From contig CAYYRT010000407.1 in NCBI GenBank assembly GCA_964474055.1, positions 1,110 to 65,109 of the forward strand: 64,000 nt of DNA, given 5' to 3'. Under the pieces are notes generated by a model, which was not told the origin of the DNA, did no database searches, and saw only the letters and a program-made list of their open reading frames with translations. The stretch is from an uncultured Acidimicrobiaceae bacterium. GTDB lineage: Bacteria; Actinomycetota; Acidimicrobiia; Spongiisociales; ZC4RG35. Made by a program: the position numbers and the translations under genes. Shown piece by piece: positions 4,877 to 64,000 of the stretch (position 1 is its first letter; each line of letters opens with the position of its first letter).

Positions 4877-4878
4877 CG

Positions 4879-6228
4879 ATGACCCCTAACCCTCTAGCGA
4901 ATGGGAGTGCCCAGGACGTGTGGACCCAGCTATTGCTCGAAAAGCTCAAGACGCGCAACGCGCGCGTTAGTATCGTCGGCCTCGGCTACGTGGGTCTGAG
5001 CCTAGCGGTCGAACTGGGGAAGGCCGGCTTCACGGTTCGCGGCGTCGACTTGGACCTGGTGCGAGTCAACTTGCTGAACCGCGGCGAGACGTATTTGGTA
5101 GACGTCCCGGCCGAGACCGTCGCGCGGCTGGTGAGCGCGGGCCGGCTTTCCGGCTCGACTTCGTTCGAGGAGGCGGCGACCGCCGACGTCATCATCATTT
5201 GCGTCCCCACCCCGTTGCGCAAGACCAAGGAACCGGATATCTCGTACATCCTCTCGGCGGTGGAGAGCCTTCTGCCCCACCTGCACGCTGGCCAGCTCAT
5301 GGTGCTCGAGAGCACGACGTATCCGGGCACCACCGAGGAGGCGGTCCAGCCGCAGCTGGAGGCGAGCGGCCTTGTGATCGGACGGGACTTCTTCCTGGCG
5401 TTCTCCCCAGAGCGGGTCGATCCTGGCAACAAGCACTTCACCACCGCTACGATTCCAAAAGTCGTCGGGGGCGTCACCGTGGACTGCACGAAGCTTGCCT
5501 CGGCCCTTTATAGCCAGGTAACCAATACCGTGTTCGAGGTCTCGAGCCCGCGCGTTGCCGAGACCGCCAAGCTGCTCGAGAACACGTTCCGCAGTGTCAA
5601 CATCGCGTTGGCCAACGAACTGGCCTTCGCCTGCCGAAAGATTGGCGTGGATCCGTGGGAGGTCATCGAGGCTGCTGCCACGAAGCCATTTGGGTTCATG
5701 CCATTCTACCCAGGGCCCGGTATCGGTGGGCACTGCATCCCAGTCGATCCACTGTATTTCTCCTGGAAAGTGCGGCTGACGGGCTACGAAGCTCAGTTCA
5801 TCGCGCTGGCCGATCAGGTCAACCGGGGCATGCCCGAGCACGTCGTCGCGCTCGTTGGCGATGCGCTGAATGATCGGGCCCGTGCTTTGCGCGGATCGTC
5901 GGTGCTCGTCATGGGCGTCACGTACAAGGCCGACGTCAATGATATCCGCGAATCGCCCGCGCTCGAGATCCTCGAGACGCTAGAGAAGAAGGGCGCCCAC
6001 GTGTCGTACGCGGATCCATACACGCCACAGCTGGCGGTGGGGGAACTCAAGCTCACCGCGGTCGAGCCGACCGGCGATGCTCTCGCTGCGGCCGACTGCG
6101 TAGTGATCCTGACCAGCCACTCGAGCTTCGACTATGGCCTCATCGCGGAACGGGCTCCCCTGGTGGTCGACACGCGCAATGCGCTCAGGGCCTATCGTAA
6201 CGGTCGGGCTTCCATCGTGACACTCTGA
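4879..6228 (+). CDS. Nucleotide-sugar 6-dehydrogenase (UDP-ManNAc/UDP-GlcNAc dehydrogenase family, WecC/WbpA-like).
   Basis: Rossmann motif VSIVGLGYVGLSLAVEL. The catalytic-Cys region GIGGHCIPVDP is present and the length (449 aa) fits the UDP-glucose/GDP-mannose dehydrogenase family. Adjacent to wecB. Alternative TTG start at 4873 overlaps the wzc stop. Confidence 0.8.
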   Translation: MTPNPLANGSAQDVWTQLLLEKLKTRNARVSIVGLGYVGLSLAVELGKAGFTVRGVDLDLVRVNLLNRGETYLVDVPAETVARLVSAGRLSGSTSFEEAATADVIIICVPTPLRKTKEPDISYILSAVESLLPHLHAGQLMVLESTTYPGTTEEAVQPQLEASGLVIGRDFFLAFSPERVDPGNKHFTTATIPKVVGGVTVDCTKLASALYSQVTNTVFEVSSPRVAETAKLLENTFRSVNIALANELAFACRKIGVDPWEVIEAAATKPFGFMPFYPGPGIGGHCIPVDPLYFSWKVRLTGYEAQFIALADQVNRGMPEHVVALVGDALNDRARALRGSSVLVMGVTYKADVNDIRESPALEILETLEKKGAHVSYADPYTPQLAVGELKLTAVEPTGDALAAADCVVILTSHSSFDYGLIAERAPLVVDTRNALRAYRNGRASIVTL

Positions 6229-11471: not shown

Positions 11472-12685
11472 TGCGTATGCGCATTCTTATGCTCGCGCAC
11501 CGGATCCCGTATCCGCCGCATACCGGGGACAAGACGCGCGCCTTTCACATCGCGCGTCACCTGGCACGCCACCACGACCTGACGCTCGGCTTCCTCGTCG
11601 AGGAGCGAGCCGATCTTGACGAGCTCAACGGCCTACGGGAGGTCGTCCCTAACGTCGAGTTCGGGCGGCTCTGGAAGCCGTGGAGCCTGCTCAAAGGTCT
11701 CGTCGGACTGACCACCGGTGGGTCGATCAGCCTCCCGTACTTTCACTCGCGGAAGCTTGAGCGGCGCGTGACGCGCCGAGCCGCCGAGACCCCCTACGAT
11801 CTCGTCTACCTCTCCTCCACCCCGATGGCGCAGTACGCGCGCGCGCTCGGGGTGCCGGCGGTGATGGACTTCGTTGACGTGGACTCGGACAAGTGGCGCC
11901 AGTACGCCGAGCACAGCCGCCCGCCCCGGAGCTGGCTCTACCGGACCGAGGGTCGCCGACTCCAAGCCGCCGAGGCCGACATCGCACGCTGGGCGAATCT
12001 CTGCGTGCTCGCCACCAAGGCCGAGGAGACCCTGCTCCGCTCGTTCGCACCGTGGGCCCGCACCGCGGTGGTCACGAACGGCATCGCCCTCGACTACTAC
12101 AAGCCGGTCGAGCGCGAGAGCGTGCCCCCCGCCGTGATCTTCACCGGGGCCATGGACTATCTGCCCAACATTGACGCGGTCCGGCACTTCTGCGACGAGA
12201 TGTTGCCCCGGATCCGGCAGCGAGTTCCCGAGACGCGCTTCTACATCGTCGGGCTGAATCCTCCCGGGGAAGTCCGGCGCCTCGTCGACATCCCGGGGGT
12301 CGTGGTCACCGGCACGGTCCCGGATGTGCGGCCCTACTACGGCCGCGCCGCGGTCTGCGTGGCGCCGCTACGCATCGGCCGGGGCGTCCAGAACAAGGTT
12401 CTCCAGTCAATGGCGATGGGTGTGCCGGTGGTGGCCAGCAGCGTGGCCCAGCGGGGACTCGAGGCGGTGCCCGGCAAGCACCTGTACGTCGAGGACGACC
12501 CCATCGCGGTCGCCGATCGCGTCGTGTCGCTGCTGGCTTCGCCCGCAGCCGCCGCGGCCATGGGCCTTCAGGGGCGCGCGTTCGTCGAGTCACACCACTC
12601 CTGGGACGCCTCCTGCTCGCGCCTCGAAAGCATGCTCCTGACGCTCGCCAGGCCCGGCGCGCATCTCGCGCGGATGCCCGCATGA
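11471..12685 (+). CDS. Glycosyltransferase family 4, PEP-CTERM/EpsH1-system-associated sugar-transferase type.
   Basis: N-terminus MRILMLAHRIPYPPHTGDKTRAFH is the characteristic start of this family. GT4 C-terminal domain present. Confidence 0.8.
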   Translation: MRMRILMLAHRIPYPPHTGDKTRAFHIARHLARHHDLTLGFLVEERADLDELNGLREVVPNVEFGRLWKPWSLLKGLVGLTTGGSISLPYFHSRKLERRVTRRAAETPYDLVYLSSTPMAQYARALGVPAVMDFVDVDSDKWRQYAEHSRPPRSWLYRTEGRRLQAAEADIARWANLCVLATKAEETLLRSFAPWARTAVVTNGIALDYYKPVERESVPPAVIFTGAMDYLPNIDAVRHFCDEMLPRIRQRVPETRFYIVGLNPPGEVRRLVDIPGVVVTGTVPDVRPYYGRAAVCVAPLRIGRGVQNKVLQSMAMGVPVVASSVAQRGLEAVPGKHLYVEDDPIAVADRVVSLLASPAAAAAMGLQGRAFVESHHSWDASCSRLESMLLTLARPGAHLARMPA

Positions 12686-14577
12686 GCGTCCCCGTGCCCT
12701 TCCTTGAAGCGCAGGCGTTCTCCGTCATGGGCGGGCTCGCGCCCGCGCCGGCCCGCCCGGTCACGGGCGAGGCGCTTCGGGCGATGGCTAGGCGCGTGAT
12801 CCAGGAGCCGGGCGCCATCTGCGCAGGGGCCGAGCCGGTCGGTCTGTTCGGCTCCGGCCGGGCCCGGATCGAGCGCGGCGACGCGGTCTGGGTGGCCGCG
12901 GAAGCCGACCTGCTAAACCTGGACGAGCTGCGCGCCGTGGCCGGGCTCGACGAGGCGCAGGCCCAGGCCGGCCTGCTCTCGCGCCTGTACGAGATGGAGG
13001 GGCCTGCGTTCCTCCGGCGGCTGCGCGGCGCCTTCGCTGTGGCGCTGTGGGACCGGCGGCAGCGGGCTCTGCTCCTGGCCGTGGACCCCTTCGGGATGAG
13101 GCGTCTGTACTACGCGGCCGATGTCCGGGGTACCGCCTTCGCGTCGCGCCTGGCCGCGCTGCGGGCCGGCCTCGCCCAGGCAGCGCCCATCGAGCCGGCC
13201 GCCATCTTCAGCTATCTGAACTTCGGCTTCATTCCGGCGCCCGAGACGCCCTTCACCGGCATCCGCCGCGTGCCCCCCGGACACGTGTTCCACGTCCGTC
13301 AGGGCTACAGCAAGCTCGAGCCCTACTGGGACATGAGCTACCCGGAGGAGCGCCACCGGGAGGAACGCGCGGCGGCCAGCTTGTACCGGCTGAGCCACGA
13401 AGCGGTTCGCGAGGCGCTGGCGCAGTCGGATCCGAGCGAGATAGGCGCCTTCCTGAGTGGGGGGACCGACAGCAGCACGGTGGTCGGCCTGATGACCCGC
13501 ATCACGGGGGGGGCGGTCCGCGCGTTCTCGATCGGCTTCCACGAGGATCGTTACGACGAGCTGCAGTACGCGAAGCTGGCCGCGCGGGCTTTCGGCGCGA
13601 CCCATCACACGCGGATCATCAAACCCGACGACGCGCTCGCCGCGCTGCCGCGGCTCGTCGAGGCCTACGACGAGCCCTTTGGCAACAACTCCGCCATCGG
13701 GGTCTACTTCTGCGCGCGCTTGGCCCGCGAGTACGGGGTCTCCCGGCTCCTGGCTGGCGATGGGGGCGACGAGATCTTCGGCGGCAACGAGCGGTACCGC
13801 ACCGATCGCATCTTCGCCCGCTACTCGAGCCTGCCCGCCGCGCTCCGTCACGGATTGCTCGAGCCGGTGCTGCTCGGCCTGCCCGTCGGCGTGCCCGGCA
13901 TCCTGGGCCGGGCCCAGCGCTATATCCGCCGCGCCAACATCCCGAACCCGCGCCGGTTCTACTCCTACGAGTTCCACGTCGCCCAAAACGCGGTTGAGAT
14001 GCTGGAGCCGTCTTTCCTGCGGCAGGCGGCGGCCACGGGGCCGTGGGGCGTGCTCGAGGAGCACTTCGCCCGCGTCCAGGCCAGCTCCGAGCTCAACCGA
14101 CTGATGTACCTCGACCTCAAGCTCACGATCGGCGACAACGACCTCTTCAAGGTCACCCGTACGTCCGAGCTGGGCGGCGTCGAGGTGCGCTTCCCATTCC
14201 TGGACCGGCCGCTGGTCGAGTTCACCGGCACATTGCCGCCCGAGTTCAAGGTGCGTGGGCTCGAGAAGCGGTATCTGTTCAAGCGCTCGTTCCGCGGGCT
14301 CCTGCCGAAGGAGATCCTGGCCAAGCAGAAGCACGGCTTCGGCGTGCCCACGTCCGACTGGCTCCGGAGCCATCGGGGGATTCGCGAGATGGCGCGCGAC
14401 GTCCTGCTGGAGAGCCGGACCGCGGACCGTGGGTATTTCCGGCGCGGAGTTCTGGAGCGCCTGTTCGAGCAGCTCGTCGCGGACAGCACGCCGTTCTACG
14501 GGGACGTCCTCTGGACGCTCCTGATGCTCGAGCTCTGGCACCGCCGTCACGTAGACGGCTGCGGGCTCGGCGGATGA
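12682..14577 (+). CDS. Asparagine-synthetase-like amidotransferase lacking the N-terminal catalytic Cys (degenerate glutaminase domain).
   Basis: Synthetase-domain PP-loop AFLSGGTDSS and conserved AsnB C-terminal blocks are present. The N-terminus has no MCG, HRGPD or YNGEIYN motifs. ATGA overlaps on both sides. Confidence 0.75.
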   Translation: MSVPVPFLEAQAFSVMGGLAPAPARPVTGEALRAMARRVIQEPGAICAGAEPVGLFGSGRARIERGDAVWVAAEADLLNLDELRAVAGLDEAQAQAGLLSRLYEMEGPAFLRRLRGAFAVALWDRRQRALLLAVDPFGMRRLYYAADVRGTAFASRLAALRAGLAQAAPIEPAAIFSYLNFGFIPAPETPFTGIRRVPPGHVFHVRQGYSKLEPYWDMSYPEERHREERAAASLYRLSHEAVREALAQSDPSEIGAFLSGGTDSSTVVGLMTRITGGAVRAFSIGFHEDRYDELQYAKLAARAFGATHHTRIIKPDDALAALPRLVEAYDEPFGNNSAIGVYFCARLAREYGVSRLLAGDGGDEIFGGNERYRTDRIFARYSSLPAALRHGLLEPVLLGLPVGVPGILGRAQRYIRRANIPNPRRFYSYEFHVAQNAVEMLEPSFLRQAAATGPWGVLEEHFARVQASSELNRLMYLDLKLTIGDNDLFKVTRTSELGGVEVRFPFLDRPLVEFTGTLPPEFKVRGLEKRYLFKRSFRGLLPKEILAKQKHGFGVPTSDWLRSHRGIREMARDVLLESRTADRGYFRRGVLERLFEQLVADSTPFYGDVLWTLLMLELWHRRHVDGCGLGG

Positions 14578-15581
14578 GCGCGCTGACCTCGTCGCTGCTG
14601 CGCTGGACGGCCACCGGGCTGCACGCGGCCTGCCTGTCGGGACCCGTGTCGCGGGCTCTCGGCTACGCGAGCGCGGCGCCGACCTTCCCGATCCTGTCGT
14701 ATCACCGGGTCAACGACGAGGGTGATCCGTTCTTTCCCTCGCTGCCCACCGAGATCTTCGAGCGGCAGATGACCTTCGTGGCCCGCGTCTACGTGGTACT
14801 CACGGTCGAGGAACTTGCCGAGCGCATGCGGAGGCGAGCGGTGCCGCGCAACGCGCTGGCCATCACTTTCGATGACGGTTATCGGGACAACCTGACCTAC
14901 GCCGCCCCGATCCTCGCACGGCTCGGGCTTCCCGCCACCGTCTTCCTCGCCACCGGGCCGATCGCTGGCGGAGAGTCCCTGTGGTTCGATCGCCTGGCCG
15001 CGGCCTTCAAGCAAGCCGCCACCCTCGCCTGGCGGGCGCCCTGGGGTGAGAGGCTGCCCCTCGAGACGCCGGCCCAACGCCTGGCCGCGCTCGGGCAGAC
15101 GCTCGGCCGCTTCAAGCGACTCGTCAACGAGGAGCGGCGACGCAAGGTCGAGCAGGTCCTGCTGACGCTAGGAACCGGTGACGACCGTCCGCTCAAGAAC
15201 CTCATGCTGGGCTGGGACGACGTGCAGGCGCTGATGGGTCTCGGCATCACGATCGGCGCCCACACCGTGACCCATCCAATCCTGTCCCAGCTCACACCGG
15301 AGGAAGCCCACGCCGAGATCTTCGAGTCGCACCGTATGATCAAGGCGGCCTGCGGCCGGGCCCCGCGAGCGTTCGCGTACCCCAATGGGCGGCCCGACGA
15401 CTATAGTCCAGCGATCCTCGCGCTCGTACGCGAGGCGGGCTTCACGTGCGCGGTGACGACCACGTTCGGCGTCAACACCCTGAGCACGCCGCCTTACGAG
15501 CTGCGCCGGGGCGGGCCGTGGGAATCCCATCTACCAACCTTTGCGCTCAAACTCGCGGGCTACCGGCTGACCGAGGCGTGA
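14574..15581 (+). CDS. Polysaccharide deacetylase (NodB/CE4 family).
   Basis: ILSYHRV..ALAITFDDGYRDN..ATVFLATG..HTVTHPIL motifs typical of NodB-fold deacetylases. Confidence 0.75.
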   Translation: MSALTSSLLRWTATGLHAACLSGPVSRALGYASAAPTFPILSYHRVNDEGDPFFPSLPTEIFERQMTFVARVYVVLTVEELAERMRRRAVPRNALAITFDDGYRDNLTYAAPILARLGLPATVFLATGPIAGGESLWFDRLAAAFKQAATLAWRAPWGERLPLETPAQRLAALGQTLGRFKRLVNEERRRKVEQVLLTLGTGDDRPLKNLMLGWDDVQALMGLGITIGAHTVTHPILSQLTPEEAHAEIFESHRMIKAACGRAPRAFAYPNGRPDDYSPAILALVREAGFTCAVTTTFGVNTLSTPPYELRRGGPWESHLPTFALKLAGYRLTEA

Positions 15582-17287: not shown

Positions 17288-17309
17288 AGAGAGGCGGCAA
17301 GACATCGCC

Positions 17310-17828
17310 ATGACCACCCGGACGTCGATATCGTTTCGGACGAGACGCGTGTTGAGCAGCACCGTATTGGGCGGTGCCCTCGTATTGGGTAGTAGCCTGT
17401 CGACGGCGGCGCCGGGGCGGGCGCAGGTAGGCCAGCCGGTTGATCTCTTCAATCACACGTTCGACCGTAAGGTCGTCACCGTGCAGGTGCGCTCTGCTCT
17501 TCCCACCGCGGTCGATGGGCTCGAGCGGCTCGTGACCGCGACAGACGTCCGACAAGCACAACAGGCGATGGTGTCGATCAGGAACACGTATCGTTACCTG
17601 CGGGCGGCACAGGAGAGCATCACCCTCATTCATCAGCAAGCCAAGTACCCTGATCCGCTCGCCCCGGTGTACGCGAAGCGGATGTGGGAAGTGCGCGCCC
17701 ATTTGCTCAAGTGCCTTGATACGCGCGACACTCTCACCCCTGACAACCCAGAAAGTGTGGCCATGTGCGCCGACGAGCTCACCGAGGGAATTCGGAAGCT
17801 TCGCATCCTGGTCACACTCTTGCCGTGA
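17310..17828 (+). CDS. Hypothetical small secreted protein (predicted signal peptide).
   Basis: N-terminus MTTRTSISFRTRRVLSSTVLGGALVLGSSLSTAAPGRAQ is signal-peptide-like. It fills the only gap in the operon and its stop overlaps the downstream start (TGATG). Confidence 0.4.
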   Translation: MTTRTSISFRTRRVLSSTVLGGALVLGSSLSTAAPGRAQVGQPVDLFNHTFDRKVVTVQVRSALPTAVDGLERLVTATDVRQAQQAMVSIRNTYRYLRAAQESITLIHQQAKYPDPLAPVYAKRMWEVRAHLLKCLDTRDTLTPDNPESVAMCADELTEGIRKLRILVTLLP

Positions 17829-19147
17829 TGCCAATTCGCGACCTGGGGCTTCTCATAACGGTGATGGTCCTGCTGCCGATATGCATCGTGAGGCCATGGA
17901 TTGGGGTGCTGGTCTGGTCCTGGCTCGGTTACATGAACCCGCATCGGCTCACGTGGGGGTTCGCGTATAGCGTTCCATTCTCGATGATGGTGGCGGTACT
18001 GACTTTGGTGGGATGCGTGTTCACGAGCGAGCGGCGGCCGTTCGTGTGGAGCCGCGAGGTGGTCGCCCTCATGACGCTGTGGCTGTGGTTCGGGATCACG
18101 ACGGTGTTCGCGGTCTATCCGGACACGGCCATGGCAAAGTTTGTCGAGTTTTCGAAGATCATGCTGATGGCGGTTCTCGTCGTGCCGCTCTTCCAGGACC
18201 GGCGCAAGCTGAGGATACTGTTTCTGGTCATCGCGGCGTCGCTCGGCTTCTATGGGGTAAAAGGCGGGCTCTTCGTCTTGCAGACGGGCGGAGAATGGCA
18301 AGTGTTGGGTCCGCCCGGTTCGTTTTTCGAGGCGAATACCGAGCTGGCGCTGGTCTTGAACATGGCCCTCCCGTTGTTGTTCTATCTGGCACGGGAGGAG
18401 TCCCACAAGTGGAGAAGACGTGGCTTGTGGGCGTCATTCCTTCTGACGCTACTTGCCATTCCCTTCACGTACTCGAGAGGTGGCGTGCTGGGCCTGGCGG
18501 TGGTCGTCACGATCCTGTTTTTGAGGGTGCGTCGACGCCTGGTCTGGATCCCAATCATCGCCGTCGGCCTGTTGGCGTTCGCGATCTTTACGCCCGAGAA
18601 ATGGGTGAGTCGAGTCCAGACCATCGAAGAGTACGAGGTTGACGAGTCCGCTCAGCTCAGGTTCATGTCATGGCGAGTGGCGATGATGATCGCAGCGGAC
18701 CGCCCCGTGCTAGGAGGGGGGTTCAAGGTCTTCACGGACCGCGCCACTTATGACATCTATCTTCCCGGATATCCGCGCGCGTTTGGCCACGATGCGCACA
18801 GTATCTACTTCAATCTGCTGGGTGAACACGGCTGGGTCGGGCTCGGGTTGTTCCTACTCCTGGTCGGATTCTCGATGTTGACCCTCCTCAGGATTCGGCG
18901 GCTGGCCAAGGCAAACCCCGAAGTGGCGTGGGCGGGCAACTATGCACATATGGTCCAGGCGAGCCTCGCGGCCTACCTGGTGACGGGAGCATTCATAAGC
19001 GTGGCATATTTCGATCTTGCGTATCAGCTTCTGGTGATGATTCCGGTTCTTCACGTGGTAGCAGTTCGGGAGGTCGCGGCCCGGCAGAGCGCGCCGGTTG
19101 CGCCTCCATTGCCAGGCGCGGCTCGCATTCCCGCAAGAGCCAAGTGA
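17828..19147 (+). CDS. O-antigen ligase / Wzy_C-domain membrane protein (putative polymerase or O-glycosylation ligase, exosortase-system type).
   Basis: About 11 TM helices, a periplasmic-loop block ..FTYSRGGVLGLAVVV.. and a C-terminal region typical of Wzy_C/RfaL-like proteins. Confidence 0.7.
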   Translation: MPIRDLGLLITVMVLLPICIVRPWIGVLVWSWLGYMNPHRLTWGFAYSVPFSMMVAVLTLVGCVFTSERRPFVWSREVVALMTLWLWFGITTVFAVYPDTAMAKFVEFSKIMLMAVLVVPLFQDRRKLRILFLVIAASLGFYGVKGGLFVLQTGGEWQVLGPPGSFFEANTELALVLNMALPLLFYLAREESHKWRRRGLWASFLLTLLAIPFTYSRGGVLGLAVVVTILFLRVRRRLVWIPIIAVGLLAFAIFTPEKWVSRVQTIEEYEVDESAQLRFMSWRVAMMIAADRPVLGGGFKVFTDRATYDIYLPGYPRAFGHDAHSIYFNLLGEHGWVGLGLFLLLVGFSMLTLLRIRRLAKANPEVAWAGNYAHMVQASLAAYLVTGAFISVAYFDLAYQLLVMIPVLHVVAVREVAARQSAPVAPPLPGAARIPARAK

Positions 19148-19148
19148 G

Positions 19149-21020
19149 ATGTGCGGCATCGCCGGTCTGCTCCGGTTGGATGGCGCCCCGGTGGACCCGG
19201 CGATTGTTCGGCGCATGACCGACATTCTGGCCCACCGCGGTCCGGACGGTGAGGGATTCCACGTGGACGGACCGGTGGGGCTCGGCCACCGGCGTCTCGC
19301 GATCATCGACCTGGCGGGGGGCCGTCAGCCGATGGCCACCGCCGATGGAGCGATCTGGATCACGTACAATGGCGAGATCTACAACTACCGCGAGATCCGG
19401 CGAGAGCTGGGCGGTCTCGGCTTCGATCTCCGCTCCGCCTCGGATACCGAGGTCATCCTCGCGGCCTACGAGGCCTGGGGAGTGGGGTGTCTGGGTCGCC
19501 TGCGGGGGATGTTCGCCTTCGCTATCTGGGATGGGCGGCGGCGGCGGATCTTCATGGCGCGGGATCGGGTCGGCATCAAGCCGCTGGTTTACGCCTGGGA
19601 TGGCCGGTGCCTGCGGTTCGCCTCGGAGATCAAAGCTCTTCTCGAGGATCCCGCCGTTTCCCGTGAGCTCGACTGGGGAGCCGTTCGGGACTATCTTACG
19701 CATCACTACGTCTCCGCGCCTCGGACCATCTTCCGCGGAATACAGAAGCTGCCGCCGGCATCGTATCTGCTCTGCTCGCTTGACGGCAGTGAGCCCAAGG
19801 TTGAGAGCTATTGGGACCTGCACATGGCGCCGGACGCGAGTCTCAGTGAGAGCGACTGGACTGAGCAGCTCGAGTACCTCCTGAACGAGACCGTCCAGCT
19901 CCATATGGTCAGCGACGTTCCGGTGGGTGCCTTCCTCAGCGGTGGGATCGATTCCAGTAGCGTGGTGGCCTGTATGGCCCGCGCATCCGCCGGTCCAGTG
20001 AAGACGTTCTCTATCGGTTTCGACGAGCAGAACTTCGACGAGCTACGGTACGCGCGCCTGGTCGCAAAACGGTACGGAACCGAGCACTTCGAGATGATCG
20101 TGAAGCCCGACGTGATGAGCGTCCTGCCCCGCCTGGCTTGGCAGTTTGACGAGCCATTCAGCGATGCCTCGGCGATCCCAACGTACTGCGTAGCGAAGGT
20201 CACTCAGGAGCATGTAACCGTTGCTCTCTCCGGCGACGGCGGCGATGAGAGCTTCGCCGGATACCGCCGCTATGCCCATGCGTTGGATCTGCATCGCCGG
20301 ATCGACCGGACGCCGGCTTCTCTCGCCAAGCCTCTACTCCGGTGGGCCGCCGCCCGGCGGAGCCCAGGGGCCCGGGGGCGCGAGTTCATGGCGCTGCTCG
20401 GCATGTCGCCACTGGACCGATATCACCGGATGATGACGTATCAGTCGGAGGAAACGCTGGCGGCCCTGTTGACGCCCGAAGCCACCGCAAACGTGGTGCT
20501 CGACGCGGGGTCGACGGGATTCGGGCGCCTGGCGGCCGCGGCGGGCACCGACGACTACCTTTCGATGCTTCAGTACATAGACGTCCACCACTACTTGCCC
20601 GGGGACATCCTGACCAAGGTGGACCGGACGAGCATGCTCACATCGCTCGAGGCCCGAGTGCCGCTGCTCGACCACGTGCTCATGGAACACGCGGCCCGTA
20701 TGCCCTCCGACGCCAAGCTCCGAGATGGGATGGGGAAGCACGTCCTGAAAGAAGCGATGCGACCTCACCTGCCGGCGGAGATCCTGGACCGTCAGAAGAT
20801 GGGGTTTGGTGTGCCTCTGGCTACGTGGTTCCGAAAGGACCTGAAGGACTTCGCGCGTGACCTTCTGGCGGATCACCGAACCCGACAACGAGGGATCCTG
20901 CGGCCCGACACCGTGAGTCACTTGTTGGATATACACATCACCGGGAACCGTGACTACTCGTCTCAGCTGTGGTCCTTCATCTGCCTCGAGCTCTGGTTTC
21001 GTACGTGGTGGGACAAGTAA
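19149..21020 (+). CDS. asnB: Asparagine synthetase (glutamine-hydrolysing) family amidotransferase.
   Basis: MCGIAG N-terminus, HRGPDGEG, RLAIIDL, YNGEIYNY and PP-loop AFLSGGIDSS. Confidence 0.85.
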   Translation: MCGIAGLLRLDGAPVDPAIVRRMTDILAHRGPDGEGFHVDGPVGLGHRRLAIIDLAGGRQPMATADGAIWITYNGEIYNYREIRRELGGLGFDLRSASDTEVILAAYEAWGVGCLGRLRGMFAFAIWDGRRRRIFMARDRVGIKPLVYAWDGRCLRFASEIKALLEDPAVSRELDWGAVRDYLTHHYVSAPRTIFRGIQKLPPASYLLCSLDGSEPKVESYWDLHMAPDASLSESDWTEQLEYLLNETVQLHMVSDVPVGAFLSGGIDSSSVVACMARASAGPVKTFSIGFDEQNFDELRYARLVAKRYGTEHFEMIVKPDVMSVLPRLAWQFDEPFSDASAIPTYCVAKVTQEHVTVALSGDGGDESFAGYRRYAHALDLHRRIDRTPASLAKPLLRWAAARRSPGARGREFMALLGMSPLDRYHRMMTYQSEETLAALLTPEATANVVLDAGSTGFGRLAAAAGTDDYLSMLQYIDVHHYLPGDILTKVDRTSMLTSLEARVPLLDHVLMEHAARMPSDAKLRDGMGKHVLKEAMRPHLPAEILDRQKMGFGVPLATWFRKDLKDFARDLLADHRTRQRGILRPDTVSHLLDIHITGNRDYSSQLWSFICLELWFRTWWDK

Positions 21021-21022
21021 GC

Positions 21023-22150
21023 ATGGGTCCGGTCGTCGCCCATGTAGTGCATTCCCTGGACGTCGGTGGCCTCGAGAACGGCGTGGTGAACCTCGTCAAC
21101 ACAGCGGGCCTCCGCTTTCGGCACGTCATCGTGTGCATGACCACTGCCGGCCCATTGCGGGATCGGCTTGACCCCGGCGTCGAGGTGGTGACGGTCGGCA
21201 AGCGTCCCGGGCAGGACTTGGCCGCCGTCGTTCGCCTGATACGCTTGCTGCGCGCGGTCCGCCCTGCCATCGTCCACTCACGCAACTGGGCGGCCCTCGA
21301 TGCCGTCCCGTCCGCCCGGCTGGCCGGGGTTCGCGTGATCGTCCACGGTGAGCACGGGCGAGAGGCCACGGACCCCGAAGGGCGTAGCGAGCGCCGGAAC
21401 CGCATCCGCCGTCTTATTCATCCGCTGGTAAGCCAGTTCGTTACGGTCTCCCGCGACCTCGAGCGTTGGTTGATCGAGGACGTCCGTCTGCCGGACCGGA
21501 AGGTCACGGCGATCCCGAACGGGGTGGACGTGACGCGGTTCGGTTGCCCCGATCGCCGGGCGGCTCGGCGATCGCTGGGCCTGCCGGACGATAGCCTCGT
21601 TCTAGGCACGGTGGGCCGCCTGGACCCGGTGAAGGACCAGGCTGGCCTGCTGCGTGCGTTCGCCGATCTGCTGCCCGCGCATCCGGAGGCGTGGCTCATC
21701 GTGGCCGGAAACGGCCCCTGCCGCGAGAACCTGCACGGGCTGGCGGCCAGCCTCCGAATCTCCGAGCGGGTGCGATTTCTTGGCGAGCGCCCGGACGTGC
21801 CTGTTGTGCTGGCTGCCATGAACCTCTTCGTGCTGCCCTCGATCGCGGAGGGTATGTCCAACACGCTGCTGGAGGCCATGGCGAGCGGCCTTCCGGTGGT
21901 GGCCACCCGGGTCGGCGGCAATCCCGAGCTGATAGAGGAAGGCGTTAACGGCCGGCTGGTCCCCGCCCAGGACTCGGGTGCTCTCACTGCCGCCATCGCA
22001 GGCTATCTCGACGATCCCCACCTCCGCGCCCTTCACGGCAAGGCTTCGCGCGAGCGGGTGGCGAGCTCCTTCAGCCTCGAGCGCATGACTGAGGCCTACG
22101 TGAATCTGTACGGCCGGCTTCTGGCCCGCCGGGGCTGGACCGGAGTCTGA
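21023..22150 (+). CDS. Glycosyltransferase family 4 (second PEP-CTERM/EpsH1-associated sugar-transferase type).
   Basis: N-terminus MGPVVAHVVHSLDVGGLENGVVNLVN. GT4 C-terminal domain with EGMSNTLLEAMASGLPVVAT. Confidence 0.8.
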   Translation: MGPVVAHVVHSLDVGGLENGVVNLVNTAGLRFRHVIVCMTTAGPLRDRLDPGVEVVTVGKRPGQDLAAVVRLIRLLRAVRPAIVHSRNWAALDAVPSARLAGVRVIVHGEHGREATDPEGRSERRNRIRRLIHPLVSQFVTVSRDLERWLIEDVRLPDRKVTAIPNGVDVTRFGCPDRRAARRSLGLPDDSLVLGTVGRLDPVKDQAGLLRAFADLLPAHPEAWLIVAGNGPCRENLHGLAASLRISERVRFLGERPDVPVVLAAMNLFVLPSIAEGMSNTLLEAMASGLPVVATRVGGNPELIEEGVNGRLVPAQDSGALTAAIAGYLDDPHLRALHGKASRERVASSFSLERMTEAYVNLYGRLLARRGWTGV

Positions 22151-22151
22151 C

Positions 22152-24074
22152 GTGTGCGGCATCAACGGCGTTGTCTACACGGATCCGCGCCATCCCGTGG
22201 ATCGCGCCCTGCTACGTCGTCTCACCACGACGCTGGCCCACCGGGGACCGGATGCCGACGGCTTCTTCTGGGAAGAAGGCGCCGCCCTGGGCCACCGTCG
22301 GCTCAGTATCATCGACCTCTCCACTGGCGATCAGCCAATCTTCAACGAGGACGGCACCAAGGCGGTGGTCTTCAACGGCGAGATCTACAACTTCCACGAG
22401 CTGCGAGCCGATCTCACCGCGCTTGGCCATCGCTTCGCTACGGCTTCCGACACCGAAGTGCTCGTCCACGCCTGGGAGGAGTGGGGCGACGGGTTCGTGG
22501 CCCGGCTGCGAGGTATGTTCGCTTTCGCCCTCTGGGATCGCCGCCACCGCCGGCTCCTCCTGGCCCGCGACCGGGTGGGCAAGAAGCCGCTCTACTACAT
22601 CCACGATGAGGAGAGGCTGCTCTTCGGCTCGGAGTTGAAGGCCCTTCTCGGCGATCCGTCGGTGAAGCGAGCCGTCAATCTGGAGGTGCTGGACGACTAC
22701 CTCACCTTTGGCGCGGTGCCGGCCCCGCGCACGATCTACCAAGGTATCCAGCAGATCCTGCCGGCGCACTACCTGGTCTGGGAAGGTGGGCGGGTCCGCA
22801 CGACTGAGTACTGGGATCTCACGTATCGCTCCGGCCCGGCGCGCGGGGAAGCGGCCTGGTTGGAGGAGTTCGAGGACATCTTCAGCGAGGCGGTGCGGCT
22901 TCGCATGATTTCAGATGTACCGCTGGGCGCCTTTCTCTCCGGTGGCGTGGACTCGAGCGCGGTGGTGGCAGCGATGGCCGCCCAGGCCTCGCGGCCGGTC
23001 ATCACGACGAACGTCTCCTTCGCCGAAAGCGCCTTCGACGAGGCGTCCCACGCCCGGACCGTGGCCCGCGCGCTGAATACCGAGCACCATGAGCTCCTTG
23101 TCGAGCCGCGGGGCGCGGACATTCTTCCTGCACTGGTCTGGCATCTCGACGAGCCCTTTGCCGACTCCTCGGCGATGCCGACGTACTACGTCGCCCGCGC
23201 AGCTCGGCAGCGCGTGACGGTGGCCCTGTCTGGTGACGGTGGGGACGAGATCTTCGCAGGCTACCAGTGGCGCTACGGCTTGAACCTGGTCGAAGCGCGC
23301 CTCAGGCGGCTGATCCCGGGCCCGGTCCGCCGCAACCTGCTGGGTCCGCTCTCTACGGTGTGGCCCAAGGCGGACCGTCTGCCGCGCCCGCTGCGGTGGA
23401 AGTTCCTCCTGCGGAACCTAAGCCTCGAGGCCGAGCACGCCTACTTCCATGATATGAGCCTCTTCACGGCCGCCGATAAGCGGGGACTCTTGACCGATGG
23501 GTTCCAGCGCACGCTCAACGGTTACGATCCCTATCCCGCCTTCCAGAGACACTTTGACCGAGTACGCGGCGCCGATCACCTCAGCCGGCTTCTCTACGTG
23601 GATCTCAAGACCTGGCTGCCCAACGACATCCTGGTTAAGATGGATCGAATGGCTATGGCCAACTCCCTCGAGGTCCGGTCACCGCTCCTCGATCACAAAG
23701 TCATTGAGTTCGCCGCGACCCTGCCCTCGGAGCTCAAGTACCGCGGAACCACCTCGAAGTACTTGCTCAAGCGCTACACCGAGCGGCGGGTCCCGGCCTC
23801 GGCCGTCCACCGTCCGAAGATGGGCTTCTCCATACCGCTAGCGACCTGGCTGAGGCGCGAGCTACGTCCGACGGCGGAGCAGTTACTCCTCTCCGAGCGC
23901 GCGCTCGAGCGGGGCTATTTCCGACCGGCTCAGATCGGAGCGATGTGGGCGCGTCATCAGGACGGTAGCCACGACCACTCGCACCATCTGTGGGCGCTGA
24001 TGATGCTCGAGCTGTGGCACCGGCTCTTTGTCGATCAAGCGCCAACTCTGACCGCGCCGGATGCTGCGCGATGA
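22152..24074 (+). CDS. asnB: Asparagine synthetase (glutamine-hydrolysing) family amidotransferase.
   Basis: GTG start then CGINGVV, HRGPDADG, RLSIIDL, FNGEIYNF, PP-loop AFLSGGVDSS. Confidence 0.85.
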   Translation: MCGINGVVYTDPRHPVDRALLRRLTTTLAHRGPDADGFFWEEGAALGHRRLSIIDLSTGDQPIFNEDGTKAVVFNGEIYNFHELRADLTALGHRFATASDTEVLVHAWEEWGDGFVARLRGMFAFALWDRRHRRLLLARDRVGKKPLYYIHDEERLLFGSELKALLGDPSVKRAVNLEVLDDYLTFGAVPAPRTIYQGIQQILPAHYLVWEGGRVRTTEYWDLTYRSGPARGEAAWLEEFEDIFSEAVRLRMISDVPLGAFLSGGVDSSAVVAAMAAQASRPVITTNVSFAESAFDEASHARTVARALNTEHHELLVEPRGADILPALVWHLDEPFADSSAMPTYYVARAARQRVTVALSGDGGDEIFAGYQWRYGLNLVEARLRRLIPGPVRRNLLGPLSTVWPKADRLPRPLRWKFLLRNLSLEAEHAYFHDMSLFTAADKRGLLTDGFQRTLNGYDPYPAFQRHFDRVRGADHLSRLLYVDLKTWLPNDILVKMDRMAMANSLEVRSPLLDHKVIEFAATLPSELKYRGTTSKYLLKRYTERRVPASAVHRPKMGFSIPLATWLRRELRPTAEQLLLSERALERGYFRPAQIGAMWARHQDGSHDHSHHLWALMMLELWHRLFVDQAPTLTAPDAAR

Positions 24075-25261
24075 AGGTGCTTCACGTTCTCGACCACTCC
24101 GTGCCGACCATGAGCGGCTACAGCACACGGAGTTGGAACATCGTCCACTTTCAGCGCGCCCTCGGGCTGGACCCGGTGGTCCTCACCTCACCCAAGCATC
24201 CCGCGCCCGGACCCGAGCGGGACGTGCTCGACGGGATCAACCACTATCGTACGCCGAGGCCGTCCGGGCTGCCGGCCCGGGTACCCTACGCGAGCGAGGT
24301 GGCGCTGATGCTCCGCCTCACTGGCCGGATTGTCAGGGTCGCGCGCGCCGAGGGCGCCCGCATCCTCCACGCGCACTCGCCGGTGCTGAACGGACTGCCG
24401 GCTCTCTGGGCGGCTCGCCGCCTCGGAATTCCCGTGGTGTACGAGGCCCGGGCGTTCTGGGAAGACGCCGCCGTGGATCACGGCACCACGCGCGAGGGAT
24501 CGGCCCGCTACCGGATTACGCGGCGATTGGAGACGGCGCTCTTCCGGCGGGCGGATCGCGTCGTGGTCATCGCGGCCGCCATGCGGGACGAGATCGCCCG
24601 GCGCGGGATCCCGGTCTCCCGCGTCACGGTGGTGCCGAACGGGGTGGACGCCGACCGGTTCCGCCCGCTCCCGCGCAACGAAGCCCTCGGCCGCCGCTTC
24701 GCACTGAACGGTGGTTGCGTCCTGGGTTTCATCGGCTCCTTCTATCGGTACGAGGGCCTGCAGTTCCTCGTGGAGGCCGTGCCCGACCTCCGCCGGCGAC
24801 TCCCCGGAGCGCGTGTGCTTCTGGTGGGAGCGGGCGAAGAAGACGCTTCCCTTCGGGCGCTCGGGACCGAGTTGGGGGACGCCGTGATCTTCGCCGGCCA
24901 GGTGCCTCACGCCGAGATCCAGCAGTATTACTCGCTGATCGATATCTTCGTCTGCCCGCGGCTGCGCATGCGCCTGACCGAGCTGGTTACCCCGCTCAAG
25001 CCTCTCGAGGCGATGGCCATGGGCCAGGCCGTGCTGGCCAGCGACGTGGGCGGGCTTGCGGAGCTCATCGAGGATGGGGTGACCGGCGTGCTGTTTCCCG
25101 CTGAGTCGAGCTCCGGCCTCGTCGCGGCGGCGGGCCGCCTCGGGAGCGATCGTGAGGCACGACTGCGGATGGGCGAGCGGGCCCGGCAGCTGGTGCTCAA
25201 GGAACGGACGTGGCGTCAGGTTGTGGGCCGCTATCTGCCGCTCTACGAGGCCATCCGGTAG
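24071..25261 (+). CDS. Glycosyltransferase family 4 (exosortase-A-system-associated type).
   Basis: N-terminus MKVLHVLDHSVPTMSGYSTRS..LTSPKH is the hallmark of this GT subgroup. C-terminal EAMAMGQAVLASDVGG. ATGA overlap with the upstream gene. Confidence 0.8.
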   Translation: MKVLHVLDHSVPTMSGYSTRSWNIVHFQRALGLDPVVLTSPKHPAPGPERDVLDGINHYRTPRPSGLPARVPYASEVALMLRLTGRIVRVARAEGARILHAHSPVLNGLPALWAARRLGIPVVYEARAFWEDAAVDHGTTREGSARYRITRRLETALFRRADRVVVIAAAMRDEIARRGIPVSRVTVVPNGVDADRFRPLPRNEALGRRFALNGGCVLGFIGSFYRYEGLQFLVEAVPDLRRRLPGARVLLVGAGEEDASLRALGTELGDAVIFAGQVPHAEIQQYYSLIDIFVCPRLRMRLTELVTPLKPLEAMAMGQAVLASDVGGLAELIEDGVTGVLFPAESSSGLVAAAGRLGSDREARLRMGERARQLVLKERTWRQVVGRYLPLYEAIR

Positions 25262-36994: not shown

Positions 36995-37008
36995 AAGCCC
37001 GCGAAGCC

Positions 37009-60552: not shown

Positions 60553-60556
<4 letters not shown>
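58436..60556 (+). CDS. Heparinase II/III-like protein (polysaccharide-lyase-like, alginate-lyase / heparinase II/III family).
   Basis: 706 aa. N-terminal alpha/alpha-toroid-like region (..WELSRHQWLVRLAQA..) and C-terminal ..GHGHADLLAL.. / ..HSTIEVDG.. blocks characteristic of Hepar_II_III_N and C domains. Confidence 0.6.
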
Positions 60557-63311
<2,755 letters not shown>

Positions 63312-63315: not shown

Positions 63316-64000
63316 ATGCGGATTCTCTGGGTCAAGGTCGGCGGGCTCTGGCCGCTCGACATGGGCGGGCGCCTGCGGAGCTTCAATACCATCGCCGAGC
63401 TCGCGCGCCGGCACCGCGTGACCGTGCTGACCACGCACGGGCCCGCGGACGACACCGAGGGGCTCGCGGCCCGGCTGACGGCGTGCGAGCGCATCGTCTC
63501 GGTGCCCCACGCGATTCCGAAGGCGGGGACACCCCGCTTCGCGGCGGCCCTGGCCCGGTCCTGGCTCTCGCCCTACCCGGTCGACCTGTGGAAGTGCCGG
63601 GTCCCCGCGCTTCAGGCCCATGTCCGGGAGGCCCTGGCCGCGGGCGTGGACGTGTGCGTGGCCGATTTCCTCGTCGCCATGCCGAACGTGCCGGCCGGTG
63701 GGCGGGCGCCCATCCTCCTCTTCGAGCACAACGTCGAGTATCTGATCTGGAAGCGGCTCCACGACGTCGAGCGCGGCACCCTTCGCCGGGCCCTGCTCGG
63801 CATCGAGTGGCGGAAGATGCGCCGCTACGAAGCGCGGGCCTGCCGGCGCGCGGCGCTCACCGTCGCCGTCTCCGAGGCCGACCGCGCGCTGCTCGGGGCC
63901 GGTGCCCGCGATGCCGACATCCGCGCGATCCCCACCGGGGTGGACACGACCTACTTCCACCCCAACGGGACCGTGGAGAAGCCCGCCACGCTGGTCTTCA
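63316..64000 (+). CDS. 3'-truncated glycosyltransferase family 4 (PEP-CTERM/EpsH1-associated sugar-transferase type). Continues beyond the window.
   Basis: N-terminus MRILWVKVGGLWPLDMGGRLRSF.. is paralogous to 11471-12685. The frame is open to the end of the window. Confidence 0.6.
   Translation, partial: MRILWVKVGGLWPLDMGGRLRSFNTIAELARRHRVTVLTTHGPADDTEGLAARLTACERIVSVPHAIPKAGTPRFAAALARSWLSPYPVDLWKCRVPALQAHVREALAAGVDVCVADFLVAMPNVPAGGRAPILLFEHNVEYLIWKRLHDVERGTLRRALLGIEWRKMRRYEARACRRAALTVAVSEADRALLGAGARDADIRAIPTGVDTTYFHPNGTVEKPATLVF

What the first reader, a model, noticed from the sequence alone, without database searches (positions are those of the whole stretch)
19149..24074. Expansion of glutamine-dependent AsnB paralogs, each embedded next to a GT4
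Four full-length MCGI-type asparagine-synthetase paralogs lie in this window (19149, 22152, 54320, 61401), plus the Cys-less one. Each is stop/start-coupled to a GT4 or a Wzy-like gene.

Exosortase loci usually carry one or two of these. Five suggests several distinct amidation events, such as uronamide formation as with WbpS, or amidotransfer onto different sugars, rather than asparagine synthesis.
Basis: partly seen in the sequence, partly recalled or inferred. Interest (0 to 1): 0.55.

Follow-up and report, generated by a model that had tools for sequence, protein, structure and literature searches.

The report
Five sugar-amidating AsnB-like enzymes clustered
Two neighbouring slime-polysaccharide gene clusters of an uncultured soil bacterium (Methylomirabilota/Rokubacteria) together carry five old, diverged asparagine-synthetase-like enzymes. 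They most likely turn sugar acid groups into amides rather than make asparagine, which makes this an unusually rich example of a known kind of enzyme, not a new system.

Summary
Five AsnB-family genes lie at 12682, 19149, 22152, 54320 and 61401. Four have the catalytic N-terminal Cys and one does not. All sit tightly against glycosyltransferase, Wzy-like or deacetylase genes.

They share only 33-47% identity. In a tree with 93 relatives, four of the five fall in their own clades with non-window sequences (bootstrap 100 for four). They never group together. So this is not a local duplication burst.

The count arises because two conserved polysaccharide clusters lie side by side:
- An XrtA-type cluster holds A0, A1 and A2.
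- A second Wzy/tyrosine-kinase cluster holds A3 and A4.
- A related genome has the same layout plus a sixth copy just past where this window ends.

A2 sits between the stp2 and stp3 glycosyltransferases, the position held by the canonical XrtA/PEP-CTERM amidotransferase. Published work groups that family (TIGR03108) with WbpS, WbqG and PGN_1234, and gene knockouts tie the latter two to uronamide formation. Uronic-acid-forming dehydrogenases and a heparinase-like gene accompany these enzymes.

The Cys-less copy belongs to a conserved subfamily (120 of 120 relatives lack Cys) that is always found beside a polysaccharide deacetylase.

The chemistry is inferred, not shown. No exosortase gene lies in the window. 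Verdict: new members of a known kind, of moderate interest.

The parts
12682..14577 (+). A0: Cys-less AsnB-like protein (631 aa). The glutaminase domain is degenerate and the PP-loop synthetase domain is intact.
   Evidence: Pfam Asn_synthase 280.9 bits. TIGR03108 is the best hit at 324.9 bits. It has no Cys2, N74, G75, E76 or D98 equivalents. All 120 database relatives lack the Cys while the synthetase motifs are at least 95% conserved.
14574..15581 (+). Polysaccharide deacetylase, overlapping the A0 stop codon (ATGA). It is the conserved partner of A0-type genes.
   Evidence: Weak PgaB/IcaB/NodB-type hits. The A0-deacetylase pair recurs in L001, L087, L013, L011 and L031.
17828..19147 (+). 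Wzy-like 'O-glycosylation ligase, exosortase A system-associated'. It ends 1 nt before A1.
   Evidence: TIGR03097 at 444.9 bits, above the 188.1 cut-off. Pfam Wzy_C and DUF5935 also hit.
19149..21020 (+). A1: Gln-dependent AsnB-like amidotransferase (623 aa, MCGI).
   Evidence: TIGR03108 697.5 bits. It forms its own clade with L001 and L025, bootstrap 100. Orthologs in relatives share 67% identity at the same position.
21023..22150 (+). GT4 glycosyltransferase of the stp2 type.
   Evidence: TIGR03088 at 426.7 bits, above the 409 cut-off.
22152..24074 (+). A2: Gln-dependent AsnB-like amidotransferase (640 aa). It occupies the position of the canonical XrtA/PEP-CTERM amidotransferase, between stp2 and stp3.
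   Evidence: TIGR03108 at 758.7 bits, the highest of the five but below the 816.9 cut-off. The same stp2-AsnB-stp3-GT4-CapK order occurs in the XrtA-containing loci L020 and L031, where the AsnB scores 1065 bits.
24071..25261 (+). GT4 glycosyltransferase of the stp3 type, with an ATGA overlap onto the A2 stop.
   Evidence: TIGR04063 at 498.8 bits, above the 442 cut-off.
4873..6228 (+). Nucleotide-sugar 6-dehydrogenase, the uronic-acid source for cluster A. WecB 2-epimerase lies nearby at 8111-9199.
   Evidence: TIGR03026 at 432 bits. UDP-ManNAc-DH and TviB models are below their cut-offs. WecB (TIGR00236) scores 327.9 bits.
53044..54351 (+). Wzy-like polymerase of cluster B. It overlaps the A3 start by 32 nt.
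   Evidence: Pfam Wzy_C at 51 bits. Weak TIGR03097 hit. Frame confirmed by GC3.
54320..56179 (+). A3: Gln-dependent AsnB-like amidotransferase (619 aa).
   Evidence: TIGR03108 653.4 bits. The same methyltransferase/Wzy-AsnB-GT4 context occurs in L019, L042, L055, L057, L038 and L085. The L085 ortholog shares 70% identity.
56176..57321 (+). GT4 glycosyltransferase, with an ATGA overlap onto the A3 stop. A second GT4 follows at 57318-58439.
   Evidence: Weak stp2-like hit at 165 bits. Pfam GT4 domains.
58436..60556 (+). Heparinase II/III-like protein, a recurrent upstream neighbour of A4-type genes.
   Evidence: Pfam Hepar_II_III_N and Hepar_II_III_C. It sits beside A4-type genes in L074, L057 and L085, and upstream of 9 of 59 metagenome AsnB-like genes that had enough flank.
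60553..61401 (+). 282-aa ORF of unknown function, ending in a TGATG overlap with the A4 start.
   Evidence: Strong GC3 coding signal. No Pfam or NCBIfam hit. It is not homologous to the methyltransferase found at this position in L085.
61401..63311 (+). A4: Gln-dependent AsnB-like amidotransferase (636 aa, MCGI), the most divergent Cys-containing copy.
   Evidence: TIGR03108 544.3 bits. It forms its own clade with eight metagenome sequences, bootstrap 100. 120 orthologs share 69-94% identity.
63316..64000 (+). stp1-like GT4 glycosyltransferase that runs off the window end.
   Evidence: Weak TIGR03087 hit. It shares 67% identity with the 405-aa GT that follows the A4 ortholog in L085.

Best explanation
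**What the window holds.** There are two adjacent, independently conserved Wzy-dependent exopolysaccharide clusters. Cluster A, at about 1.2-36.6 kb, is XrtA/PEP-CTERM-type by gene content. Cluster B, at about 44.5 kb to beyond 64 kb, begins with a sigma-54 regulator and a chain-length/ATPase/tyrosine-kinase set. Each brings its own AsnB-like amidotransferases.

**How A1-A4 most likely work.**
- They are two-domain Ntn glutamine amidotransferases. The N-terminal Cys hydrolyses glutamine and the ammonia is channelled to the C-terminal PP-loop domain.
- That domain adenylates a carboxylate on a sugar. The most likely target is C-6 of a (2-acetamido)hexuronic acid, either as a UDP-sugar or on the undecaprenyl-linked repeat unit. 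The product is a neutral uronamide plus AMP and PPi.
- Each paralog belongs to a different old subfamily with its own acceptor-loop motif and its own neighbouring glycosyltransferase. They probably amidate different residues, or the same residue at different assembly steps, in two different polymers.

**A0.** It cannot use glutamine. It most likely uses free or handed-over ammonia, or another amine. It works together with the deacetylase that always accompanies it.

**Shown versus inferred.** Shown: domain make-up, catalytic motifs, divergence, phylogeny, synteny, and co-occurring dehydrogenases. Inferred: the acceptor, the product, and the division of labour.
For: - **Architecture and motifs:**
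- **Family placement:** TIGR03108 is the best hit for all five. The E. coli-type AsnB model NF006949 is far below its cut-off, at 141-354 against 499 bits. The closest solved structure is TsnB9, which transfers onto a non-amino-acid carboxylate.
- **Phylogeny:** the A0, A1, A2 and A4 clades each have 100% bootstrap with non-window members. The window copies are never monophyletic.
- **Synteny:**
  - Canonical XrtA loci run stp1, XrtA/EpsI, TviB-like UDP-GlcNAc 6-dehydrogenase, stp2, amidotransferase (1065 bits), stp3.
  - Cluster-B-type loci run GT2, methyltransferase and/or Wzy, AsnB, GT4.
  - A4-type genes lie beside heparinase II/III-like and dehydrogenase genes.
  - 27 of 48 metagenome homologs have a GT4 directly adjacent.
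- **Conservation in the lineage:** the whole supercluster is conserved in a related Methylomirabilota contig, with orthologs at 67-77% identity. That contig also has a dehydrogenase and a sixth AsnB downstream of A4.
- **Acceptor loops:** they are at least 90% conserved within each subfamily and differ between subfamilies, while the catalytic motifs are shared.
- **Literature:**
  - Deleting PGN_1234 (WbpS) abolishes the uronamide, and WbpS and WbqG best match TIGR03108 (PMC7468200).
  - A wbpS mutant of H. pullorum stalls its glycan at HexNAc-HexNAcA (PMC6025236).
  - A transposon insertion in the R. gelatinosus gene with the same GT1-AsnB-GT1-GT1-CapK context as A2 changes aggregation (PMC3684757).
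  - LtsA amidates lipid-linked peptidoglycan intermediates (PMC7920481 abstract).
Against: - No biochemical or compositional data exist for this organism, which is an uncultured MAG.
- None of the five reaches the curated TIGR03108 cut-off, while all pass the generic asparagine-synthase model TIGR01536.
- Within the window, cluster B has no dehydrogenase. That argument rests on a relative.
- Cluster A may be impaired. Its wzx flippase is missing and its glmS paralog is truncated compared with two relatives. No exosortase is in the window either.
- I could not compare directly with WbpS or WbqG sequences.
- Within-subfamily conservation partly reflects close relatedness of the database hits.
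Confidence: 0.6

Rival explanations
1. They amidate, or ligate amines to, carboxylates other than uronic acid C-6. Candidates are aminoacyl, succinyl, pyruvyl or lactyl decorations of the polymer. Another candidate is the 'linking sugar' proposed to join PEP-CTERM proteins to glycan.
For: - Cluster A also encodes a FemAB/VimA-like aminoacyl transferase, GNATs, an acyl-CoA ligase, a PLP decarboxylase and a CapK-like ligase.
- Veith et al. propose that VimA-like, VimE-like and amidotransferase genes of PEP-CTERM loci build an amino-acid-modified sugar.
- TsnB9 shows that the fold accepts varied carboxylates.
Against: - The experimentally supported members nearest to this family, PGN_1234 and WbqG, act on uronic acids.
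- Dehydrogenases and a heparinase-like gene are the recurrent companions.
Confidence: 0.2
2. Fewer than five are functional or distinct in role. Cluster A may be decaying, or some paralogs may be redundant. The count would then overstate the number of amidation events.
For: - The wzx flippase is deleted, the glmS paralog has lost its C-terminal tail, and no exosortase is present in the window.
- A composition step between the clusters hints at a recent replacement or a chimeric contig.
Against: - All five ORFs are intact with catalytic motifs preserved.
- Orthologs of all five are kept at 59-77% identity in a related contig.
- Strong codon-position GC signal is present throughout.
Confidence: 0.12
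3. They are real asparagine synthetases. They would supply Asn, for example for Asn-rich secreted proteins, or serve as housekeeping copies placed in these operons by chance.
For: - All five pass the TIGR01536 'asparagine synthase (glutamine-hydrolyzing)' cut-off, at 269-521 against 267 bits.
- Sources name them so.
- From my own knowledge, long-type AsnB homologs of B. subtilis can complement an E. coli Asn auxotroph.
Against: - Five diverged copies sit inside glycan operons with conserved glycosyltransferase neighbours across many lineages.
- One copy cannot use glutamine.
- The E. coli AsnB residues T322, T323, R325, D384 and R387 are not matched.
- The NF006949 model is far below its cut-off.
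Confidence: 0.05

Closest known systems
WbpS (P. aeruginosa O6), WbqG (E. coli O121) and PGN_1234 (P. gingivalis): AsnB-like uronamide-forming amidotransferases
   Same: - They share the Ntn-Cys plus PP-loop architecture.
- They are encoded inside glycan clusters next to glycosyltransferases and uronic-acid-forming dehydrogenases.
- They are reported to best match TIGR03108, as A0-A4 do.
   Different: - In those systems a single copy serves one O-antigen or linking sugar. Here there are five, probably six, diverged copies across two clusters.
TIGR03108, the XrtA/PEP-CTERM system amidotransferase (eps_aminotran_1)
   Same: - It is the best model for all five.
- A2 sits in the canonical stp2-amidotransferase-stp3 position.
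   Different: - All five score below the curated cut-off, at 325-759 against 816.9 bits.
- The window has no XrtA, whereas the canonical loci L020 and L031 have an XrtA/EpsI fusion two genes upstream.
Multi-AsnB exopolysaccharide/floc clusters of Rubrivivax gelatinosus, Thauera MZ1T, Rhodoferax, Zoogloea and Aquincola
   Same: These are large PEP-CTERM-associated EPS clusters with two or three 'asparagine synthase/wbpS' genes. One of them has the same GT1-AsnB-GT1-GT1-CapK-Wzy context.
   Different: This window is from a different phylum (Methylomirabilota). It has a higher count, a second cluster type with a heparinase-linked subfamily, and no exosortase in the window.
E. coli asparagine synthetase B (1CT9)
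   Same: The glutaminase site (C1, R49, N74, G75, E76, D98) and the PP-loop are conserved in A1-A4.
   Different: - The synthetase domain is weakly similar.
- The window proteins carry an insertion of roughly 70-90 residues after the SGxGxDE motif.
- The TTIR loop and the D384 and R387 equivalents differ.
LtsA/AsnB peptidoglycan mDAP amidotransferases, and TsnB9 hydroxyamidotransferase (7YLZ)
   Same: They are AsnB homologs that act on carboxylates other than aspartate. LtsA acts on lipid-linked intermediates. TsnB9 is the best PDB match for A0, A2 and A4.
   Different: Their acceptors and genomic contexts are different.
Cys-less AsnB homologs: beta-lactam synthetase, CarA and lasso-peptide cyclases
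   Same: Like A0, they keep the adenylating domain and a dead glutaminase-like domain. They form amides with a nucleophile other than glutamine-derived ammonia.
   Different: - A0 is much closer to the TIGR03108 group (324.9 bits) than to these. The lasso cyclase model gives 151 bits and CarA gives E = 2e-8.
- A0 sits in a polysaccharide operon beside a deacetylase.

Membership tests
AsnB superfamily (class II Ntn glutamine amidotransferase plus PP-loop synthetase) | An N-terminal catalytic Cys directly after the initiator Met, together with the glutamine-site residues (R49, N74, G75, E76, D98 in E. coli numbering). | tested here: met
   Met for A1-A4. Not met for A0, which keeps only the Arg. 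All 120 A0-family relatives also lack the Cys.
AsnB superfamily (class II Ntn glutamine amidotransferase plus PP-loop synthetase) | The PP-loop SGGxDS and the SGxGxDE and KxGF motifs of the adenylating domain. | tested here: met
   Present in all five, and at least 90% conserved in the A0, A2 and A4 families.
TIGR03108 XrtA/PEP-CTERM system amidotransferase | Whole-protein score at or above the curated cut-off of 816.9 bits. | tested here: not met
   A2 scores 758.7, A1 697.5, A3 653.4, A4 544.3 and A0 324.9 bits. A canonical member, L031, scores 1065.1 bits.
TIGR03108 XrtA/PEP-CTERM system amidotransferase | Position between the stp2 (TIGR03088) and stp3 (TIGR04063) glycosyltransferases of an XrtA-type EPS operon. 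| tested here: met
   Met for A2 only. stp2 scores 426.7 and stp3 scores 498.8 bits, both above their cut-offs. The same order is seen in L020, L022, L027 and L031.
TIGR03108 XrtA/PEP-CTERM system amidotransferase | Co-occurrence with an exosortase A gene and PEP-CTERM proteins. | tested here: not met
   - No XrtA hit appears in any NCBIfam scan of the window genes.
- tblastn with two XrtA sequences gives E > 0.4.
- The motif search found no PEP-CTERM tail.
- The rest of the genome could not be examined.
Genuine asparagine synthetase B | Score above the AsnB equivalog model NF006949 (cut-off 499 bits). | tested here: not met
   Scores are 141-354 bits. The broader TIGR01536 model is passed by all five, at 269-521 against 267 bits.
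Genuine asparagine synthetase B | Residues implicated in aspartate binding and beta-aspartyl-AMP formation in E. coli AsnB: the T322/T323/R325 loop, K376, D384 and R387. This residue list comes from my own knowledge of the AsnB literature. | tested here: inconclusive
   The aligned positions differ. The loop reads EPFADSS, EPIAFPS or EPFGNNS, and the D384 and R387 equivalents are I/L and K. The alignment of this region crosses a long insertion and is uncertain.
WbpS/WbqG-type uronamide-forming amidotransferases | Encoded in a glycan cluster together with a nucleotide-sugar 6-dehydrogenase that makes the uronic acid. | tested here: met
   Cluster A has a dehydrogenase at 4873-6228. Canonical loci have a TviB-like dehydrogenase two genes upstream. 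For cluster B a dehydrogenase is seen only in the related contig L085.
WbpS/WbqG-type uronamide-forming amidotransferases | Sequence grouping with WbpS, WbqG or PGN_1234 rather than with other AsnB-like proteins. | not tested
The link rests on the published statement that they best match TIGR03108 (PMC7468200).
WbpS/WbqG-type uronamide-forming amidotransferases | A uronamide residue in the finished glycan that depends on the gene. | not testable with these tools
   The organism is an uncultured MAG and no glycan data exist.

The most novel reading that the evidence does not exclude
The Cys-less A0 subfamily, always paired with a polysaccharide deacetylase, may not be an ammonia-using amidotransferase. 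It could be an ATP-dependent ligase that joins an adenylated sugar carboxylate to the free amine exposed by the deacetylase, or to an amino acid. That would create lactam or amide cross-links or aminoacyl-amide decorations in an exopolysaccharide. With A1-A4 and the probable sixth copy, the two polymers would then carry a programmed pattern of neutralised and cross-linked carboxylates.
Probability: 0.1. Interest if true: 0.7.

Novelty: new member of a known kind. Interest (0 to 1): 0.35.

Why it matters
**Why amidation matters.** It removes the negative charge of uronic acids. That changes how a slime polymer binds metals, water, cells and phages.

**What a multi-enzyme locus implies.** Five to six dedicated enzymes suggest that soil Methylomirabilota/Rokubacteria, which are abundant but uncultured, tune polymer charge residue by residue.

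**Practical value.**
- The window shows that 'asparagine synthase' annotations inside polysaccharide operons are misleading. At least five separable subfamilies are hidden under that one name, each with a diagnostic neighbour: stp2/stp3, Wzy, methyltransferase/GT4, heparinase-like, or deacetylase.
- The conserved Cys-less subfamily paired with a deacetylase is the least understood piece. It is the best candidate for new chemistry.

Tried and rejected
- **Source contig look-up.** I looked for the window's own contig, to see beyond 64 kb, using A4, the priming GT and P0001. None is on record.
- **Genome scan.** The genome-contig scan with A2 returned only two distant loci, so it gave no species-level census.
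- **PEP-CTERM tails.** A regular-expression search of all six frames for PEP-CTERM tails found nothing credible.
- **RNA genes.** tRNA and Rfam scans of the whole window found nothing, so there is no tRNA-linked island boundary between the clusters.
- **Recent duplication.** Rejected: 33-47% identity and no monophyly.
- **Chimeric contig as the explanation for two clusters.** Not supported as a general explanation, because three other contigs carry both A2-type and A4-type orthologs. This rests on shared contig lengths, and was confirmed for one contig. The GC3 step, however, is specific to this window and remains unexplained.
- **The glmS paralog.** The MCGI-type gene at 15605 was considered as a sixth AsnB. 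It is a glmS paralog.
- **Structure prediction.** Not run. The tools return no coordinates, so the subfamily-specific loops could not have been mapped onto the pocket.

Full report
**1. What is in the window**

The window is high-GC (60-74%), and almost every gene is on the + strand. I called genes from codon-position GC and annotated them with NCBIfam and Pfam. Two polysaccharide clusters emerge.

Cluster A spans about 1.2-36.6 kb. Many of its genes exceed the curated cut-offs of 'XrtA/PEP-CTERM system' families:
- the priming transferase TIGR03013;
- the deacetylase TIGR03006;
- the FemAB-like protein TIGR03019;
- the glycosyltransferases stp1, stp2 and stp3;
- the Wzy-like TIGR03097;
- the acyl-CoA ligase TIGR03098.

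Cluster A also has a nucleotide-sugar dehydrogenase, WecB, a glmS paralog, GNATs and a CapK-like ligase.

Cluster B runs from about 44.5 kb to beyond 64 kb. Its gene order is:
- sigma-54 response regulator;
- chain-length determinant (TIGR03007);
- ATPase (TIGR03015-like);
- tyrosine kinase;
- priming transferase;
- GT2;
- methyltransferase;
- Wzy;
- A3;
- two GT4s;
- a heparinase II/III-like protein;
- an unknown ORF;
- A4;
- an stp1-like GT.

Between the clusters lie a 1006-aa secreted protein, two minus-strand genes and small regulators. The closest named relatives are Methylomirabilota / Candidatus Rokuibacteriota MAGs.

**2. The observation**

Five AsnB-family genes are present at the stated positions. 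Four have the N-terminal Cys and one lacks it.

All junctions with neighbours are gaps of 0-4 nt or overlaps. This is true of the operons in general, since 29 of 39 junctions are 10 nt or less, or overlap (refined starts). The coupling is real but not specific to these genes.

The paralogs share 39-47% identity among A1-A4 and 33-36% between A0 and the rest. The finding survives.

**3. Where the five come from**

I collected 80 metagenome loci with A2-like proteins, plus related contigs. I then built a neighbour-joining tree of 99 AsnB-like sequences rooted on E. coli AsnB.
- The A0, A1, A2 and A4 clades each contain non-window sequences and have bootstrap support of 100/100.
- The placement of A3 is weaker, at 35-48.
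- The window copies are never monophyletic, 0 of 100 bootstraps.

Each subfamily has its own conserved neighbourhood.
- **A2-type.** It lies between stp2 and stp3 in loci that carry an XrtA/EpsI fusion and a TviB-like UDP-GlcNAc 6-dehydrogenase just upstream. There the amidotransferase scores 1065 bits on TIGR03108.
- **A3-type.** It follows a methyltransferase and/or Wzy and precedes a GT4, in loci with the same regulator-to-GT2 order as cluster B.
- **A4-type.** It lies next to heparinase II/III-like and dehydrogenase genes.
- **A0-type.** It lies next to a polysaccharide deacetylase.

A related Methylomirabilota contig (GCA_035280465.1, DATEFU010000376.1) has the same two-cluster layout. 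Its orthologs share 67-77% identity, and its A2 and A4 orthologs lie about 50 kb apart. Downstream of A4 it continues with a GT4, a UDP-glucose/GDP-mannose-type dehydrogenase, a GT2, a sixth AsnB-like gene and then methyltransferases. By inference, the window's locus probably continues in the same way past 64 kb.

**4. How unusual the number is**

Published PEP-CTERM-associated EPS clusters report two 'asparagine synthetase' genes in Zoogloea and Aquincola (PMC9012009). They report three in Rubrivivax, Thauera and Rhodoferax (PMC3684757).

In my sample, 21 loci were at least 16 kb long. Of these, 15 had one AsnB-like gene, 4 had two and 2 had three. The window has three within 10 kb of A2 and five in 64 kb. 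That puts it at the top of what I saw, but the excess comes from two clusters lying side by side. I could not run a genome-wide census.

**5. What they do**

The glutaminase and adenylation motifs are intact in A1-A4. Several lines of evidence argue against asparagine synthesis.
- The E. coli-type AsnB model is far below its cut-off.
- The best solved relative is TsnB9, an AsnB-like enzyme that transfers a nitrogen group onto trichostatic acid.
- The loop aligned with the E. coli AsnB TTIR segment is replaced by motifs that are at least 90% conserved within each subfamily but differ between subfamilies. They are EPFADSS in the A2 family, EPIAFPS in the A4 family and EPFGNNS in the A0 family.
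- The genes are embedded in glycan operons across many lineages, and 27 of 48 homologs have a GT4 directly adjacent.

Several lines of evidence point to uronamide formation.
- Dehydrogenases that make uronic acids are recurrent companions, as is a heparinase-like protein.
- Deleting PGN_1234 (WbpS) in P. gingivalis abolishes the glucuronamide form of the linking sugar.
- WbqG is reported as required for GalNAcAN, and WbpS and WbqG are reported to best match TIGR03108 (PMC7468200).
- An H. pullorum wbpS mutant stalls its glycan at HexNAc-HexNAcA (PMC6025236).

That the enzyme may act on lipid-linked intermediates is plausible by analogy with LtsA. The same paper points out that PEP-CTERM loci combine a VimA-like FemAB protein, a VimE-like deacetylase and this amidotransferase. 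All three are present in cluster A.

**6. The Cys-less copy**

A0 is not a decayed gene.
- All 120 database relatives, at 56-93% identity, lack the Cys.
- In the A2 and A4 families, 110 and 116 of 120 relatives have Met-Cys at residues 1-2.
- The first ~100 residues of A0 are poorly conserved, while the synthetase motifs are at least 95% conserved.
- More distant members from other loci also lack the Cys.

A0 must therefore use ammonia from elsewhere or a different amine. Its constant partner is a deacetylase, which would expose a sugar amine. That is the basis of the low-probability novel reading.

**7. Caveats**

- No exosortase or Wzx flippase gene lies in the window.
- Compared with two relatives, the glmS paralog has lost its last ~57 residues and the 490-aa wzx gene is missing. 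Cluster A may be impaired, or the contig may be misassembled.
- Cluster B genes have GC3 of 0.91-0.97, against 0.73-0.93 for cluster A. This step is absent in the relative.
- The tree is distance-based. The WbpS link is from the literature, not from sequences I could align.

**8. Verdict**

'Expansion' should be read as the co-location of several old subfamilies. These are new members of a known kind. The conserved Cys-less, deacetylase-linked subfamily is the most interesting loose end.

Noticed in passing
window 15605-17828 (junction about 17270-17310): The glmS paralog stops at residue ~555 of 612 and so loses its catalytic C-terminal tail. The 490-aa Wzx flippase gene that follows it in two related contigs (L001, L087) is absent. 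A small secreted ORF (17310-17828) follows directly. No Wzx homolog exists anywhere in the window. This is either a real ~1.7-kb deletion or an assembly artefact.
   Followed up: partly
window 1-64000: Cluster A contains many XrtA/PEP-CTERM-system marker genes above their curated cut-offs, yet there is no exosortase (XrtA/EpsI) gene and no PEP-CTERM protein. In the canonical loci L020 and L031, XrtA sits between stp1 and a TviB-like dehydrogenase.
   Followed up: yes
window about 42600-44450 (boundary); genes 1210-42592 versus 44457-64000: There is a sharp composition step. Third-codon-position GC is 0.73-0.93 in cluster A and 0.72-0.78 in the three genes between the clusters, against 0.91-0.97 in cluster B. 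The related contig shows no such step (L087 0.78-0.88, L085 0.70-0.88). Possible causes are recent replacement of cluster B from a higher-GC relative or a chimeric MAG contig.
   Followed up: partly
window 36973-39993 (+): A 1006-aa secreted protein lies between the two polysaccharide clusters. It has a hydrazine-synthase-alpha middle-domain hit (PF18582, 40.6 bits) and two CxxCH haem-binding motifs. Its function here is unknown.
   Followed up: no
window 60553-61401 (+): A 282-aa ORF with a strong coding signal and no Pfam or NCBIfam hit overlaps the A4 start. In the related contig L085 an unrelated methyltransferase occupies this position.
   Followed up: partly
L085 15378-17267 (related contig, downstream of the A4 ortholog): This is a sixth AsnB-like gene (629 aa, MMCGIAG, 36-39% identical to A1-A4). 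A GT4, a UDP-glucose/GDP-mannose-type dehydrogenase and a GT2 precede it. The window's locus probably continues in the same way beyond 64 kb.
   Followed up: partly
window 42706-43140 and 43223-43861 (+): Two small ORFs lie in the otherwise gene-poor spacer before the sigma-54 regulator. By eye, one resembles a degenerate GGDEF-type domain. Neither was scanned against family libraries.
   Followed up: no
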